Positions 54,001 through 60,000 of a DNA stretch of 64,000 nt are shown here, piece by piece. Location: the NCBI RefSeq assembly GCF_013167455.1, contig NZ_CP038328.1; one strand, given 5' to 3'. A program made the position numbers. Within the stretch, counting starts at the first letter, position 1, and every line of letters begins with the position of its first letter. The DNA comes from Escherichia coli O157:H7. GTDB taxonomy: Bacteria > Pseudomonadota > Gammaproteobacteria > Enterobacterales > Enterobacteriaceae.

Positions 54001-57000
54001 GCCGATATTGAACACAGTGACTGCTTTCATCGTTTCCGCGTTAATGAAGCAGCGGGAGTGCTCATCGGCATACCCTTTGCTGTATTCAACAAAGTCATCA
54101 ATACTGGTTGTGGTCATGACTCCACGGAAACGAAAACGTTCTGTCATGAATCGTTCCAGACTTTCGATATTTACATTGTCCGGCAATAACGCAACAGGGC
54201 ATTCCGTAAGCGGCAAATTTTCACCAGAAAAAGCAGTAGTGGTGAGTTTTACAATTTCTTTAATGGCATTGCTATCTAACTGAGACATGTATATTTACCT
54301 TTAATTTATGGATTTGGGGATAATGCGCGAGCGTTTTAAGGCGGGGATTATTCAGCGTAAAACAGCGTCATGTTGACCCTGTTTATCGAAAAGCTGTCCC
54401 TGGTCTTTCTGGAACAAAGTAAGCTCACCACCTTTATTTACAAACATCGGGGTGTTAGTTGTGTCTTCTTCTGATTTACTACCACGCATTGTCGGGCGTG
54501 TGAATTTTAGTTTATGGGAAACTGATACGCGATTTTCATCAAGTGAAGATAATTCGAATTCAACACATACCTTTCCTTTTTTGTTTGTGCTGTTTACGCC
54601 AAAGGCAACTTCACTTAATACCGCGCCAAGTTTGTTAACAAATACCCCGCCGTCGAGGTCGTTAATGAAAATATTAACATCTGTCTGATGCTGACTCATA
54701 TTTATATCTCCGTGTAGAGAGTGTATTGAGGCTTCGGTTGTTTACTGCATTTAAAGCCTGGTTTTGTTTGTGAATTAAAAACTATCGCTGCCGTACTGCC
54801 AGTAACCTGGGGCGTCCGTGTGATTCGGGTTTACGTTTTTGCTGCGATTGTCTTTGTCTTTGAGAGTGGAAACCATATTTGCTACAGTTTCTGGTTTCTT
54901 TCCTTCAGCTTTTTCTTTCAGTGTCTGCCCTGTTTCTGCAATGAATGGAATGCGGATTTCCATCTGGTAACCGTCTGCGCCAGTCTTTCTGTTTGTGGTT
55001 AATACTTTCTGGAGGACGAGTCCGATTTTCTTTCCGTGAAACTCAGGTGCAACATATTTACTGACGGAAACCATATGCTGCGTTAACTGCCCAATTCCTG
55101 TGCATCCCATCATGGCGTGAATAATGCTCGCCCCAAATTTATTTTCAGTGCCGTCATTCTTCTGAACACAAACACTGAGATATTGGATTTTCCGTCCGTC
55201 GTCGGATTCTCCAGAAAACTCAATGAATCGGGCACCTTTTTCTGATTGCTTGAGTTCTGCTTCGGTGATGTTAATGATATGCGCACCCGTTTCGGTAATA
55301 AAACCACCTTGTCCGGCGGTCAGTGCTGATTCTTCGTTATAAGTAAAAATCACTTCATCCATTAGTTATTAACCCCCCATTGTTCTCCAAATACAAAACC
55401 AATTTCTGCCAGTGCTTCGTCCATTTTGTCGATGAACTCCGGCACCATCTCATCAAAACTCGCCATGTACTTTTCATCCCGCTCGACCACGACATAATGC
55501 AGGCCTTCACGCTTCATGCGTGGGTCGTAGTTGGCGAAGTACCAGGCGTCCTTGTCTGTAACCCACATGCTGAATTGCACCTGGGCCATGTAAGCAGGCT
55601 TGATAGCGTCAAAGCCGCCAAGCCGGAACTTCATGAAGTCGCGGGAAGTAAAGGGGCATTTAAGCTCAAGACCGTTACCGTCACTGCATAAACCATCGGG
55701 AGAGCAGGCGGTGCGCATGCTTTCGTCACGAAAAATTATGGGTGTTTCCGAGACGGTAACATCCGCGATAAATTCAAAGAGGGCACGGGCATCATCTTCA
55801 TATTGCTTTCCCCATGCGAGCGACTTAGCGTTAACTTCCGGTGCCACGCCAGTACAAACTTCAGCCAGCAGGGTGTGGAAGTATGACATTTTTGTATCAG
55901 GCCATTTGCTGCCGGAACGTGGCTTTGCTATCACATTGTGAACTTCTGAAGCAGTGATAACACCGAGTCTCAGCTTGTGCCATCCATCATCGCCCTGGTC
56001 GAGGCTGGTAATATCCACGCCAGTTCGCTGGAGAATAATTTCTGGTGTCATGACACGGCCTCGCTGTTATTTTCCGTGGTGGCGTGAATTTTCGCTTCCG
56101 CCGTGGCCTTGTTTCTGGCAGCTTTCTTTTTGACAAAATCAAGCGTTTTGACAGCTTCTTCCTGAGAGAGAGCTTCATGTGATGCAATCGTGCGACGGAA
56201 TGTTTTGGAACATACGGGAAGCAGGTCATCCCATGTCTTGTTAATTTCGGTGATTGCCTGAGTGATCTCATTGATAATCTCATCTGATGCGGGAGTGACG
56301 TCACGCTCAGGGATATGATCAGCATTCAGGATGATACCTTCACCGGCCTGAGTGTTCAGGTAGTCGATAGCTGTATCCAGGCGATCGCGACGGGGCCAGT
56401 ATTTGCTGGCGCGCTTAACAATGGCTTTTCTGGCCATTTCATCGGGGAAACTATCCCACGGGCTACTTCCTCCGTTATTTCCGGCTTTGCTGCACGCCCT
56501 GATGACCTCGATTTCCCTGTTGCTCATCTCTTCGGTCAGATAGTCGCCTTCGGATGTTTTTACGACACAATAACCGCCAATGCGTGCGCCCCTGTCTACG
56601 AAGGGGTTGTATTTGTGCGTGGGGGCGCAGTCAATACCGTTGGACTCGTAAATGTCCTTCTCGTAAACAAGTTTGCATTGCCCCCACTGAATGGCTCCTG
56701 TGACCTGTGCCAGATGCAGAAGCCCCATATAACTGATATCCAGGCATACAGCCTTTTTTCGTGGGACCAGATACGCCAGCTTGCTGGCCGGGTTCAGGGT
56801 TATGCCGATGGCGGCAACATTGATGATAGCGTTCTGTGCGCTGGGCAGATTTGCCCTTGCTGTGTCAGCCAGAAAGGCATTTTTCTGGAATTGCTGAATT
56901 GCAAACTGACTTTCCTTCGCCCATGTCAGCGTCGGTTCAGTTAATGCCTCGCAGAAAAAGCGCTCCTGCTGCTTAACAAATTCAACGATATCGAACATTT

Positions 57001-60000
57001 TTTGGTCCTGAAAATCAGAAAGGACAGGGGGAGAATTTTCTCTCCCATTCTTCTTCCGCCCGAGCATAGGCGATCGCTGAGATATAATCGTTGTACGCCT
57101 CTTCAGCTTTTTCGCCAGTGAGTGCTAGTTGGGCTTCTTTGGGTAAAAAAAGGCTGCTCATAAGCAATGGTTTATCGGGGAACATGCTGATAAGCTCCTG
57201 CGCCCGATCATCAATCCATTTATCCTTTTCATCCTGAATTTGCTGATTAATCCAGCGACGCTCCTCTATGCGGTCGCAGGTGAGGTATGCGTTCATGGCG
57301 GAACTCCTGATTCCGGTTAATGCATTAAATTAATTTGTCGGGAAAGCTGACATACAGGGCAGTTACATTCTTCCTCCTGCTCCTTAGCGAAGAAATATGC
57401 AGCGGCCTGTAATGCGATGTCTTCTGGATGTTCCGCGATAAACATAACATTGCCTTCCGTATCAATAACAGAAATAGCCTCATCAGACAGGATGACAAAA
57501 TAGGCGATGATTTTATCATCCATAAAAACTTCTCCCATTATCGTTCCTGCTGGAGTTACGACGCTTTTTACATTGATATTTATTTTTTGATTGAGCATGA
57601 TATTTCCTTTCAGGCTGGTGAGATTAACGGTTGGCCTTTATTGTTCAGGTAAACTTCTATTGCATCTGAGATAATGCGAATTTTTTCAATCAGTGAATGT
57701 GCGTAAAGTGCATTATTAACGTTCGCTGACGCCATGTAATAACGCCCGTTGTAAAGAATTGCTGTGCCGGGTTTAACGTCCTCGCGAGAAACTAATGCGG
57801 TTCCGTAGTGAGGTTTGAGCATGACAAATCCTCCGGTTAATTAATCCAGATATTTTATTTAATCCCCGATATGTGATCGGGGATGGGGTTAATTAAAGAT
57901 TAACGTTGAAACCAAAGCGGGAAGATTTTTCCGATGTGCGGGAAATATCCAGCAATTTACGGCGCATTTCTTCCGTCAGATGCTTGAAGGCGTTAAATTC
58001 GGCGACAGCTGCATCGACGTTATAGCCGTTACGACGTAATTCATTAAATATGCGCATTGCAGGGCTTGGCATGTCGAATAAGACGGAGGTATCAAGCTGC
58101 AATGTATTTCTATCAACATAGTTCATCGTGGCATAGGGGTGATGCTCTGAAAACCACGATAAAGGGAAATTGATATTCATCGCAGGAGAAGACAGGGCCA
58201 GTTGTTTCTGTTCCCATAGTTGTTTTTCCATGCGATCGAATTCAGCAATGTAGGCTTCCTTGAATGCAGCTGCTTTTTTGCCGGTGAAGCCCATCACCAG
58301 AAAAACGAATCCGTTTTTGGTGATTTGGTACATTGGGCGTTGTTCGCCTTTGGCGTCGGTGTAGGTAACGTCCGCAAAATTGCGGGCGTTAAATTCCGTA
58401 GAACAATCCATCAATCGGATTTTTTTTAAAACGTCGTCGTGCCGCTTGTCAAAAAATTCAGCAATAGCAATAGACGTTGTGACAACGCGACCATTGGTAA
58501 TGGTGATTTCAGGTTGAGAAAGGGCAGGGATAGTAGCCATAATGGCAGCCTCCTTGATTGGTGATTGAGAACCACCGCAGGAGGTCCTAAGCTCGCTGGC
58601 GGTGGACTGTACAGGGTTAGGACTACTGGCAATCAAGGGAACCAGCCCGACCGAAGTCGGCCCCATACAGCCCACCATTGATAAGATGTGCGTGTATATC
58701 GATACAAAAAAAGACGCTGGCGCGTCTGTATCGCCTCGATTGTCAGCGGGGTCCTAATCCCGACACCCGTTTTATAAGGTGTTCGCCAAATATAGCCCCC
58801 GACATCACACGCAGTCAATACCGTCCTTTCTCAGAAACGCTTTGGCGGTGCCGCCTGCACCCCAAAACATTCCCTGTATTGGTCAGCGCCAACTTCCTGC
58901 CAGTGTTGCCCGTTCTCACGCCGTTCTCGCTCTCGCGCGGGGATACTCTCTCATCGACCGGATCGCACCCGATGATACAGCACGTTTACGTGTAGGGGTC
59001 TAAACAGGTCATTGACGCTGTAAAGCTCCAGGTTGTTAAAGAGCATTTTGCGGCGGGTTAAGTCGCGCCGTACGACTGATTTATGTAGCCCTGTGTAAGG
59101 GCGCGATGTTTCTGGCTTGAAAGAAATATAACTTGCGGTGATTTTTATGTAAATACCGTTAGTGGTTATTGGGGGTGAAAAAATATTACTTAACTGATTT
59201 TTAAAGTGATTTATTTTTTAAGGGGACAGATAACAGGAGGGGATATGCAAAGAAAAACCCGGCGCATGGGCCGGGCTATTTATCTGGTCCTGTTCTCATT
59301 CAGTAGAGTAGGGGCCAAGAAATCGCACTCCGTTGAAGTGAATAAGATGAGAAGGTGCATCAGCCACCCATACCTCTGTTTCCCATGCGATTTCACCAAG
59401 ATATCGCCCCATGATGGAGCGATTTGGAAAAGCGGTCACATAGACAAGTCCGGCTGTTGATCCGGCAAACAGCCTGGCAAGCTCAGCATGCCGCTTCCCA
59501 TCAACCGGTCCATGACTGGTGACAGACTCAACCAGTAGCAGCCAGTTTTTCGCAGTAAAATGTAGCACCACATCTGGCATTTTACCGTGTGAATCCACAT
59601 CAACACCTAGCCCGGCCAGCAGTGGAGCGTCGAAGTAGCCCCACTTTTCGCCAGTGTCGCCAGCATAGACCAGCACGCTACCCGGAGCAAAACGTGGGGC
59701 GAAGTCCTCTATTATGGCACGGATAAGTTCGCTGTGCTCGCCGGGACTGAGGGTTATTTGCTGGCCCGCAGCAATTTCAACAGGGATACGATTCTGTTCG
59801 CGCTCCTTAGCATAGCGGGTAACCAGCGTTTCACGCTCGGCTAAATAGGTTGCAAGGCTATCGTGCCATGCCGGGCTGCCGAAAGTGCGTAGCATGGACA
59901 GAGCAGCAGGTTCGATCTGATAAACAGCCTTCGGGCTGTTCACTGGGCGATCGGGCTTGTCCGGATTGTAGAGGGCTACTCCAGCAGCGCAGAACTGATG

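What the first reader, a model, noticed from the sequence alone, without database searches (positions are those of the whole stretch)
55362..57296. Hybrid recombination module: lambda-type Exo paired with a RecT-core annealing protein carrying a Bet-like tail
exo is recalled as near-identical to lambda Exo, but the partner has a RecT-type core with a Bet-like C-terminus (the region that contacts Exo in lambda). This looks like a mosaic recombineering pair; a weak Gam-like ORF sits upstream.
Basis: partly seen in the sequence, partly recalled or inferred. Interest (0 to 1): 0.35.

Follow-up and report, generated by a model that had tools for sequence, protein, structure and literature searches.

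The report
RecT-core annealase with Bet-type exonuclease-docking tail
A Shiga-toxin-type prophage carries a recombination gene set whose strand-annealing protein joins a RecT-type body to the small tail domain that phage lambda's Bet protein uses to dock onto its exonuclease; the mosaic is real, but these exact genes are already deposited and annotated and the arrangement is already known from phage phi80.

Summary
On the minus strand of 55362-57296 lie gamL (93 aa), an annealing protein (316 aa, true start 56998) and exo (229 aa, 88% identical to lambda Exo).

The annealing protein has a RecT-type core. It passes NCBIfam rect, gives no bet_lambda hit, and its best fold match is Listeria RecT. 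A disordered linker follows, then a three-helix tail 52% identical to the lambda Bet C-terminal domain (TM 0.91-0.94 to PDB 6M9K).

Tail swapping is visible in nature. One E. coli contig carries a Salmonella-type core (98% nt) joined at about codon 190-197 to this tail (95-100% nt) plus this exo. The Salmonella parent has an unrelated tail and no exo.

The tail is not a recent graft from lambda. It is one allele of a tail family found on RecT, Bet and ERF cores, usually next to a lambda-type exonuclease.

The "weak Gam-like ORF" is a strong match to phi80 GamL.

The DNA is 100% identical to Shigella phage Ss-VASD and occurs in 147 of 5426 complete E. coli genomes. A 2025 survey of lambdoid recombination modules already lists this gene combination. 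The finding is correct but only modestly interesting.

The parts
57015..57296 (-). gamL: phi80-type host nuclease (RecBCD) inhibitor, 93 aa
   Evidence: NCBIfam NF033500 phi80_GamL, E 1.8e-44, 149.8 bits against a cutoff of 40. PHROG 1050, gam-like inhibitor. 74% identical to phi80 GamL over 93 aa. Only N-terminal similarity to lambda Gam: 25 nt at 92% identity at the GamS start.
56048..56998 (-). Single-strand annealing protein, 316 aa plus stop codon (whole gene)
   Evidence: The start at 56998 matches the RefSeq annotation of the identical phage Ss-VASD and the homologue N-termini. AGGA lies 7 nt upstream. The stop overlaps the exo start as ATGA. PHROG 148, RecT-like annealing protein, E 2e-95.
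56351..56998 (-). RecT-type DNA-binding/oligomerisation core (residues 1-216)
   Evidence: Pfam PF03837, 86.7 bits. NCBIfam TIGR00616 rect, 66.5 bits against a cutoff of 52.65, and no bet_lambda hit. 33% identical to Rac RecT. AF2 pLDDT >90; best PDB fold match is Listeria phage RecT 7ub2, E 1e-6.
56291..56350 (-). Flexible linker (residues 217-236)
   Evidence: AF2 pLDDT is below 50 at residues 221-230. Sequence similarity to lambda Bet (PERDVTP against PERDITP) begins here.
56099..56290 (-). Bet (Red-beta)-type three-helix C-terminal domain (residues 237-300), the presumed Exo/SSB docking domain
   Evidence: phmmer to PDB 8tfu E 2e-18 and 6m9k E 3e-14. Foldseek to 6m9k chains D/E/F: TM 0.91-0.94, rmsd 0.7-0.8 A, 52% identity. 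52% identical to lambda Bet 186-261.
56051..56098 (-). Lineage-specific 16-residue C-terminal extension (residues 301-316)
   Evidence: Absent from lambda, phi80, CobraSix and Midgardsormr38. Present in P0003. Modelled as a continuation of helix 3 at lower confidence, pLDDT 61-79.
55362..56051 (-). exo: lambda-type 5'-3' exonuclease, 229 aa
   Evidence: 88% identical to lambda Exo and 82% at DNA level, with similarity starting at the ATG. Pfam YqaJ, E 2.5e-28. Helix E keeps L91 and F94.
54775..55362 (-). Phage single-strand DNA-binding protein (HK620 'SSB-2' type), 195 aa. It is translationally coupled to exo and is an associated part outside the reported range.
   Evidence: PHROG 743, SSB, E 1e-68. 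Annotated as SSB in Ss-VASD. TAATG overlap with exo. The C-terminus ends ...GSDSF. The 2025 survey lists SSB-2 for the 99%-identical phage TL-2011c.

Best explanation
This is the early-left (pL operon) recombination module of an argW-integrated, Stx-type lambdoid prophage. It is a phi80-type 'Red-like' system: GamL, annealing protein, Exo, then a phage SSB.

Shown here:
- The annealing protein has two parts. A RecT-family core (residues 1-216) is joined through a disordered linker to a three-helix domain homologous to the lambda Bet C-terminal domain.
- The partner nuclease is a close lambda Exo homologue.
- The genes are translationally coupled (ATGA and TAATG overlaps).

Inferred from the lambda structures (6M9K, 8TFU) and mutagenesis:
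- GamL blocks RecBCD.
- The Exo trimer resects the 5' strand at DNA ends.
- The tail domain docks on Exo helix E, so the RecT-type core is loaded onto the emerging 3' overhang.
- The same pocket then binds an SSB C-terminal tail, from the host or from the phage's own SSB, to bring the filament to its target for annealing.

Origin:
- The tail, usually together with exo, behaves as a cassette. It is exchanged between annealase cores by recombination in the conserved end of the core (around ...EMARKxIVKRASKYWP).
- The same tail family therefore sits on RecT-type, Bet-type and ERF-type cores.
- The allele here is an old, diverged member (52% identical to lambda). It is not a recent transfer from lambda.
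For: Architecture:
- Family scans and pairwise comparisons.
- PDB sequence hits restricted to the tail.
- AF2 model with mean pLDDT 87.7 and a disordered linker.
- Foldseek: the core matches Listeria RecT 7ub2, and the tail matches 6m9k/8tfu at TM 0.87-0.94.

Interface residues, as defined by Caldwell 2019 (PMC6393309):
- Of the four residues whose mutation abolishes the lambda complex, Exo L91, Exo F94 and Bet F249 are identical here. Bet L223 is replaced by V.
- Bet K253 and R229 are kept.

Cassette behaviour:
- E. coli contig L013 has a core 98% nt identical to the Salmonella gene L015 up to about codon 190. From about codon 197 it is 95-100% identical to the window tail, and it is followed by an Exo 98.7% identical to the window's.
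- L015 has an unrelated tail (hhalign probability 1.7%) and no exo.
- phi80 and CobraSix DNA resembles lambda from Bet codon ~186 through exo, but not upstream of that.
- Every RecT-core protein with this tail that was examined is adjacent to a YqaJ/lambda-type nuclease.
- Rac and Edno5 RecT, which partner with RecE, lack the tail.

Breadth:
- A tail profile finds 65 cluster representatives among 1.84 billion proteins.
- Of the 32 full-length proteins scanned (30 hits plus lambda Bet and the window protein), 17 score as rect, 5 as bet_lambda and 10 as ERF.

Co-variation and function:
- Tail identity tracks Exo identity across 13 pairs (Spearman 0.71, p 0.006).
- The phi80 homologue is a functional recombinase in vivo (PMC3945230).
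Against: - No binding or recombination data exist for this particular pair.
- Three of the four hydrophobic pocket residues differ from lambda (L223V, I227T, L250V), and Exo helix E has T90A and T95I. Docking geometry is therefore assumed, not shown.
- Exo (88%) and the tail (52%) differ greatly in their divergence from lambda. They may not have been inherited as one block in this lineage.
- One ERF protein with this tail has no recognisable nuclease next to it, and another sits on a contig too short to tell.
- The Exo/tail identity correlation is confounded by host phylogeny and rests on 13 pairs.
Confidence: 0.8

Rival explanations
1. The protein is not a hybrid in any historical sense. The Bet-type tail is ancestral to this whole RecT sub-clade, or to the RecT/Red-beta superfamily, and was inherited vertically. 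The protein is then simply a conventional member of the phi80-type RecT family.
For: Tails of the same family occur across the clade in Vibrio, Aeromonas, Yersinia, Erwinia, Serratia, Morganella and Enterobacter relatives. Their divergence roughly parallels that of the partner Exo. In the window, the tail shows no DNA similarity to lambda.
Against: Nearly identical cores carry unrelated tails (P0003 against P0112, crossover mapped; hhalign probability 1.7%). phi80 and CobraSix show a sharp onset of lambda-like DNA at the linker. The same tail sits on ERF cores, which have a different Pfam family. Vertical descent alone cannot give this pattern.
Confidence: 0.15
2. It is a diverged but conventional full-length Bet (Red-beta), and the RecT label on the N-terminal part is an artefact of a broad Pfam family.
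For: Pfam PF03837 'RecT' also matches lambda Bet itself. BLAST aligns a short core motif (PW...M..K) between the two proteins.
Against: NCBIfam separates the two. The window protein passes rect (66.5 bits against 52.65) and gives no bet_lambda hit, whereas lambda Bet hits bet_lambda at 169.5 bits. It is 33% identical to Rac RecT over 147 residues, but has no core alignment to Bet beyond that motif. The best fold match is Listeria RecT, and Red-beta 1-177 is not among the 50 best matches.
Confidence: 0.03
3. The tail similarity is fortuitous (a generic helical or low-complexity region) and has nothing to do with Exo.
For: None beyond the small size of the domain.
Against: E 2e-18 against 177,635 PDB sequences, with hits only to Bet C-terminal domain entries. 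52% identity, rmsd 0.7-0.8 A and TM 0.91-0.94. Key pocket residues are conserved. The tail consistently lies next to lambda-type exonucleases.
Confidence: 0.02

Closest known systems
Phage phi80 (Lula) recombination module: gamL, rec (RecT/'bet'), exo (GenBank JX871397; Rotman et al. 2012, cited but not readable here)
   Same: Same gene order and the same three families. GamL is 74% identical and Exo 82%. The annealing protein has the same RecT core plus Bet-type tail and is 56% identical overall. The phi80 protein is a working recombinase in vivo (PMC3945230).
   Different: The phi80 tail is much closer to lambda (77% against 52%) and lacks the 16-residue extension. phi80 has the GamL antitoxin Agt/Mog, which is absent from the window. 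phi80 has no SSB gene after exo; the window does.
Lambda Red system (Gam, Bet, Exo), including the Exo / Bet C-terminal domain complex (PDB 6M9K) and the Bet C-terminal domain / SSB-peptide complexes (8TFU, 8TG7)
   Same: Exo is 88% identical, and its helix E keeps L91 and F94. The tail domain is homologous, with F249, K253 and R229 kept. Both have an ATGA overlap between the annealase and exo genes. The function expected is the same.
   Different: The DNA-binding core is RecT-type, not Bet-type. Gam is replaced by the sequence-unrelated GamL. The pocket carries L223V, I227T and L250V, and Exo carries T90A and T95I.
Rac prophage RecE/RecT
   Same: The annealase core belongs to the same family: 33% identity and a TIGR00616 match.
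   Different: The partner nuclease there is RecE, not lambda Exo. Rac RecT has only a short tail with no Bet-type domain. The window protein fails the Rac RecT equivalog model (74 bits against a cutoff of 296).
Stx phages TL-2011c / P13374 (O104:H4) and Shigella phage Ss-VASD: module type 'SAP type 4 + Exo + GamL + SSB-2' in the 2025 lambdoid survey (PMC12315714)
   Same: The DNA is 99-100% identical, so this is the same module.
   Different: Nothing material. That paper explicitly leaves the 'shuffling of partner interaction domains' unanalysed.

Membership tests
RecT family of single-strand annealing proteins | Match to the curated family models over the DNA-binding core | tested here: met
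   PF03837, 86.7 bits against a cutoff of 24. TIGR00616 rect, 66.5 bits against a cutoff of 52.65.
RecT family of single-strand annealing proteins | RecT-type fold of the core | tested here: met
   AF2 core pLDDT >90. The best PDB match is Listeria phage A118 RecT 7ub2 (E 1e-6, TM 0.60 normalised to the target). Red-beta 1-177 is not among the 50 best matches.
RecT family of single-strand annealing proteins | Orthologue of Rac prophage RecT (equivalog model NF007351) that works with RecE | tested here: not met
   74.2 bits against a cutoff of 296. The adjacent nuclease is lambda-Exo type, not RecE.
Lambda Bet (Red-beta) family | Bet-type N-terminal annealing domain (TIGR01913 bet_lambda) | tested here: not met
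   No bet_lambda hit at E <= 0.01, whereas lambda Bet scores 169.5 bits. BLAST shows no core alignment beyond a short shared motif.
Lambda Bet (Red-beta) family | Three-helix C-terminal domain homologous to Bet residues ~183-261 | tested here: met
   8tfu E 2e-18 and 6m9k E 3e-14. TM 0.91-0.94, rmsd 0.7-0.8 A, 52% identity.
Lambda Bet (Red-beta) family | Conservation of the residues that form the Exo/SSB-binding pocket (L223, I227, F249, L250, K253) | tested here: inconclusive
   F249 and K253 are identical. L223V and L250V are conservative changes. I227T occurs together with Exo T95I. Whether these changes preserve binding cannot be judged from sequence.
Lambda Bet (Red-beta) family | Physical complex with the cognate exonuclease and with the SSB C-terminal tail | not testable with these tools
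   Needs pull-down/ITC experiments or a multimer structure prediction. Only single-chain prediction was available.
Lambda exonuclease (YqaJ / PD-(D/E)XK) family | Full-length homology to lambda Exo, including the catalytic region and helix E | tested here: met
   197/225 residues identical. In the alignment, residues 100-140, which hold the catalytic motif, differ at only three positions (T100S, S102T, Y107F). PF09588, E 2.5e-28. The NCBIfam sub-model TIGR03033 is below its cutoff (54.5 against 68.05), but 88% identity to the type protein is decisive.
GamL (phi80-type host nuclease inhibitor) | Match to the equivalog model NF033500 over its full length | tested here: met
   149.8 bits against a cutoff of 40, covering model positions 1-88 of 89. 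74% identical to phi80 GamL.
GamL (phi80-type host nuclease inhibitor) | Inhibition of RecBCD/SbcCD; presence of the companion antitoxin Agt/Mog as in phi80 | tested here: not met
   tblastn finds no Agt/Mog homologue anywhere in the 64-kb window. Inhibitory activity itself cannot be tested here.

The most novel reading that the evidence does not exclude
The Bet-type C-terminal domain may be a general, portable adaptor that sets partner specificity. It would travel with lambda-type exo genes and be grafted by recombination at the core/linker boundary onto at least three annealase cores (RecT, Bet, ERF).

On this reading, this lineage carries its own matched allele pair:
- tail I227T, L223V and L250V together with Exo T95I and T90A;
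- a 16-residue tail extension;
- a co-encoded SSB ending in ...GSDSF that could occupy the same pocket.

Such a pair might be partly orthogonal to lambda Red. If so, annealase/exonuclease pairs could be re-matched at will by swapping about 90 residues. It would also answer, for one large RecT clade, the question a 2023 review (PMC11611040) left open: whether RecT proteins use a Bet-like C-terminal domain to bind their partners.
Probability: 0.4. Interest if true: 0.5.

Novelty: already known. Interest (0 to 1): 0.3.

Why it matters
The lambda Bet C-terminal domain is the only annealase/exonuclease interface known at atomic level. In 2019 it was reported to have no significant sequence homologues (PMC6393309). 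A 2023 review called it unknown whether RecT proteins use a similar domain (PMC11611040).

This locus and its relatives show that a large clade of RecT-core proteins, and some ERF proteins, carry a clear homologue of that domain next to lambda-type exonucleases. Nature swaps it at a defined joint.

That is a natural domain-swap experiment supporting the idea that the tail decides the partner. It also gives a practical rule for building hybrid recombineering pairs.

The locus itself is not new. It is a common, annotated Stx-prophage module, and its gene combination has been catalogued.

Tried and rejected
1. The 339-aa ORF start at 57067 was rejected in favour of 56998. The longer ORF overlaps gamL by 53 nt. 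All homologues and the RefSeq annotation start at the M24 equivalent, and AGGA lies upstream of it.
2. A recent transfer of the tail from lambda was tested. Sensitive blastn (word size 7) finds window/lambda DNA similarity only across exo, starting at its ATG, so this was rejected for this lineage. The same test is positive for phi80 and CobraSix.
3. I asked whether the alternative mEpX1/Salmonella-type tail is a distant member of the same domain. hhalign gives probability 1.7%, so it is treated as unrelated.
4. I looked for the phi80 GamL antitoxin Agt/Mog in the window and found none.
5. Rotman et al. 2012 (the phi80 genome paper) could not be read. Whether it already describes the chimeric Rec protein is therefore unknown.
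6. Context of ERF proteins with this tail was mixed. P0156 and P0152 (core unassigned) are followed by a YqaJ nuclease. P0174 is not.
7. A fused Exo-linker-tail AF2 prediction was considered but not run. The tool returns no coordinates or interface metrics, so it could not test docking.
8. The window is not phage Ss-VASD itself. Only 46123-64000 matches it, and the rest is E. coli chromosome.

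
Full report
**What is at the locus.** Three co-oriented genes lie on the minus strand of 55362-57296.
- gamL, 57015-57296, 93 aa.
- A single-strand annealing protein, in the ORF 56048-57067.
- exo, 55362-56051, 229 aa.

The mechanical ORF start of the annealing protein (57067, 339 aa) overlaps gamL. Every homologue begins at the equivalent of Met24. The RefSeq annotation of the identical phage begins there too, and AGGA lies 7 nt upstream of that ATG. The gene is therefore 56048-56998 and encodes 316 aa. Its stop overlaps the exo start as ATGA, and the exo stop overlaps the next gene's start as TAATG. That next gene (54775-55362) encodes a phage single-strand DNA-binding protein (PHROG 743, E 1e-68). 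Upstream lie a gene of unknown function and kil. This is the usual layout of a lambdoid early-left operon.

**Where the window comes from.**
- The 1935 bases are 100% identical to Shigella phage Ss-VASD. They are 99% identical to the O104:H4-type Stx2a phages P13374 and TL-2011c and to dozens of other Stx phages.
- The window is not that phage. Only 46123-64000 matches Ss-VASD.
- Positions 1 to about 44.4 kb are E. coli chromosome. They include an IS629 copy and sucrose (csc) genes.
- The prophage starts at the argW tRNA-Arg(CCU) gene at 44442-44516. The junction is 100% identical to phage VT2phi_272 of an O157:H7 strain.
- The annealase gene occurs in 147 of 5426 complete E. coli genomes. It is always chromosomal and is annotated 'RecT family recombinase' next to 'lambda exonuclease family protein'.

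**Checking the observation: Exo and the upstream ORF.**
- Exo is 197/225 (88%) identical to lambda Exo and 82% identical in DNA over 677 nt.
- The catalytic region, lambda residues 100-140, is almost unchanged in that alignment. The three differences are T100S, S102T and Y107F.
- The upstream ORF is not merely 'weakly Gam-like'. It matches the NCBIfam equivalog for phi80 GamL at 149.8 bits against a cutoff of 40 and is 74% identical to phi80 GamL.
- Its similarity to lambda Gam is weak and confined to the first ~15 residues. These coincide with the start of the short GamS form, where 25 nt are 92% identical.

**Checking the observation: the annealing protein.**
- The core is RecT-type. Pfam RecT covers ORF residues 54-227. 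NCBIfam rect scores 66.5 bits against a cutoff of 52.65, with no hit to the bet_lambda model. Identity to Rac RecT is 33% over 147 residues.
- Lambda Bet aligns only from the shared PW motif onward. It aligns convincingly only over the last ~75 residues.
- A search of all PDB sequences returns only entries of the Bet C-terminal domain: 8tfu at E 2e-18 and 6m9k at E 3e-14.
- An AlphaFold2 model built on 29 homologues has mean pLDDT 87.7. It shows a folded core (residues 1-216), a disordered linker (pLDDT below 50 at 221-230) and a three-helix bundle (helices 239-251, 256-267 and 279 onward).
- Foldseek against the PDB gives Listeria phage RecT (7ub2, E 1e-6) as the best match for the core.
- It gives the Bet C-terminal domain chains of 6m9k for the tail, at TM 0.91-0.94, rmsd 0.7-0.8 A and 52% identity. 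The Bet N-terminal domain is not among the 50 best matches.

**Is there a mosaic junction? Relatives in the phage collection.** I compared relatives of the core and of the tail separately.
- phi80, Enterobacter phage CobraSix, Erwinia phage Midgardsormr38 and Klebsiella phage RothC have the same architecture next to a lambda-type Exo.
- Phage mEpX1 has a core 69% identical to the window's but an unrelated tail, and it has no exo.
- Rac and Edno5 RecT, whose partner is RecE, have no such tail.
- In phi80 and CobraSix, DNA similarity to lambda (75%) begins at about Bet codon 186, in the linker. It then runs uninterrupted through exo.

**Is there a mosaic junction? A natural recombinant.** The clearest case came from the large protein search.
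- An E. coli protein, P0003, has the mEpX1/Salmonella-type core and the window-type tail.
- At DNA level its gene is 98% identical to the Salmonella gene up to about codon 190. From about codon 197 to the end it is 95-100% identical to the window.
- The crossover lies in the conserved ...EEMARKTIVKRASKYWP segment at the end of the core.
- The recombinant is followed by an Exo 98.7% identical to the window's.
- The Salmonella parent is followed by a Sipho_Gp157 protein (the type annotated Mu-Gam-like in mEpX1) and has no exo.
- Its tail is unrelated to the Bet-type domain by profile-profile comparison (probability 1.7%).

**How 'hybrid' is it?** In the window itself the tail has no detectable DNA similarity to lambda. 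It is 52% identical in protein, compared with 77% for phi80. So it is not a recent piece of lambda Bet.
- A profile of nine tails was searched against 1.84 billion cluster representatives. It found 65 proteins at E <= 1e-3, many of them short fragments.
- I scanned 32 full-length proteins: 30 of those hits plus lambda Bet and the window protein. Seventeen score as rect, five as bet_lambda and ten as ERF.
- RecT-core proteins with diverged versions of the tail from Yersinia, Morganella, Vibrio and Aeromonas are all followed by a YqaJ/lambda-type nuclease.
- So are one ERF-core protein and one protein whose core could not be assigned. One ERF example is not, and another sits on a contig too short to judge.
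- Across 13 pairs, tail identity to lambda tracks Exo identity to lambda (Spearman 0.71, p 0.006). The sample is small and confounded by host phylogeny.

The best description is a modular one. A tail domain, usually moving together with exo, is attached to interchangeable annealase cores.

**How it most likely works.** The lambda complex structure and mutagenesis (PMC6393309, read) give the template.
- Exo helix E (T90, L91, F94, T95) inserts into a pocket of the tail formed by L223, I227, F249 and L250.
- Mutating L91, F94, L223 or F249 abolishes the complex.
- The same pocket, together with K253, binds the C-terminal tail of SSB.
- In the window pair, L91, F94, F249, K253 and R229 are identical. 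L223 and L250 are replaced by V. I227 is T while Exo T95 is I and T90 is A. The I227T/T95I combination is unique to this lineage among the 15 pairs tabulated. It could be a reciprocal compensation, but that is inference.

I infer the same sequence of events as in lambda Red.
1. GamL disables RecBCD.
2. The Exo trimer resects the DNA end.
3. The tail tethers the RecT-type core to Exo, so it is loaded on the 3' overhang.
4. The tail then switches to an SSB tail.

The phage's own SSB ends in ...YGSDSF. This resembles the terminal-Phe motifs DDDIPF of E. coli SSB and NDYPPF of HK620 SSB; the HK620 motif is required for stimulating its cognate annealase (PMC5928155). That this SSB uses the tail pocket is speculation. 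Function of the architecture as a whole is supported, because the phi80 homologue promotes recombination in vivo (PMC3945230).

**Comparison with what is known, and novelty.**
- The locus is a member of the phi80-type module and is identical to deposited, annotated phages.
- The 2025 survey of lambdoid recombination modules (PMC12315714) lists exactly this combination for TL-2011c: annealase sequence type 4, Exo, GamL and SSB-2. [quoted passage not shown]
- The 2019 structure paper stated that the Bet C-terminal domain had no significant sequence homologues. A 2023 review called it unknown whether RecT proteins use a similar domain.
- The domain-level picture assembled here may therefore add a little to the literature I could read. 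That picture comprises the mapped joint, the natural recombinant, and the tail on three core families.
- The phi80 genome paper could not be consulted.

**Verdict.** The locus is already known, and interest is modest.

Noticed in passing
window 1-44516: The first ~44.4 kb are E. coli chromosome, not phage. The prophage begins at the argW tRNA-Arg(CCU) gene (44442-44516, minus strand). The stretch from 43123 across the junction is 100% identical to Stx2 phage VT2phi_272 of an O157:H7 strain, which places attL at the tRNA 3' end and puts the host intS and the phage integrase on either side.
   Followed up: partly
window 13667-14983: An IS629 copy (99.8-100% identical to the IS629 copies annotated in many Stx phages) lies in the chromosomal part of the window.
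   Followed up: no
window ~30176-35904: A sucrose utilisation (csc) cluster: invertase, sucrose permease, fructokinase and a LacI-type regulator. It is 98.6% identical to chromosomal flanks included in some deposited prophage records.
   Followed up: no
window 57015-57296 and the whole window: gamL is present, but tblastn finds no homologue of the phi80 agt/mog gene anywhere in the window. The phi80 record annotates that gene as the antitoxin without which GamL is toxic. CobraSix also lacks it in the region fetched, whereas the Yersinia, Morganella and Erwinia relatives have it upstream.
   Followed up: partly
window 57252-57311: The first codons of gamL, plus a few bases upstream, resemble the inside of lambda gam at the GamS start (25 nt at 92%; 20 aa at 60%, reaching 5 codons upstream of the gamL ATG). 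In CobraSix the similarity spans 66 nt (82%) and 42 aa. This fits GamL being a truncated, strongly diverged relative of Gam, or a conserved recombination joint at this gene boundary.
   Followed up: partly
window 57942-58175 (also 47869-48156): Relative to Ss-VASD, the window lacks about 0.9 kb between two ~234-bp direct repeats shared by the anti-repressor gene gp26 and the regulator gene gp27. The repeat aligns to both Ss-VASD 14187-14420 and 15117-15350. This looks like a repeat-mediated deletion leaving a single 261-aa ORF (57893-58678). A third related segment lies at 47869-48156.
   Followed up: no
window 59296-60249 and upstream to ~61.7 kb: A restriction endonuclease (317 aa) and a DNA methyltransferase sit inside the prophage early region between the anti-repressor genes and the cI-type repressor, as in Ss-VASD gp28/gp29.
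   Followed up: no
window 51961-54288: Downstream of the recombination genes lie a PAPS-reductase-like protein (292 aa) and a DUF2303 protein (273 aa, E 2e-65). Both are conserved in Ss-VASD, and neither has a known role in the module.
   Followed up: no
locus L013 (E. coli GCA_050515605.1 contig) 3001-4619; locus L015 (Salmonella GCA_005527415.1) 1263-2165: A natural recombinant annealase gene: 98% nt identical to the Salmonella/mEpX1-type gene up to about codon 190, then 95-100% identical to the window gene, followed by the window-type exo. This maps a crossover at the core/tail boundary.
   Followed up: yes
proteins P0132, P0154, P0156, P0165, P0166, P0168, P0173, P0174, P0185 (loci L024, L025): ERF-family annealases (Pfam PF04404) that carry a C-terminal domain of the Bet type. 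The P0132 tail is 60% identical to lambda's and its gene follows a GamL-like gene. P0156 is followed by a YqaJ nuclease.
   Followed up: partly
window 6733-7101: Weak tblastn similarity of lambda Gam to a chromosomal reading frame (22% over 131 aa, E 0.004). This is probably chance.
   Followed up: no
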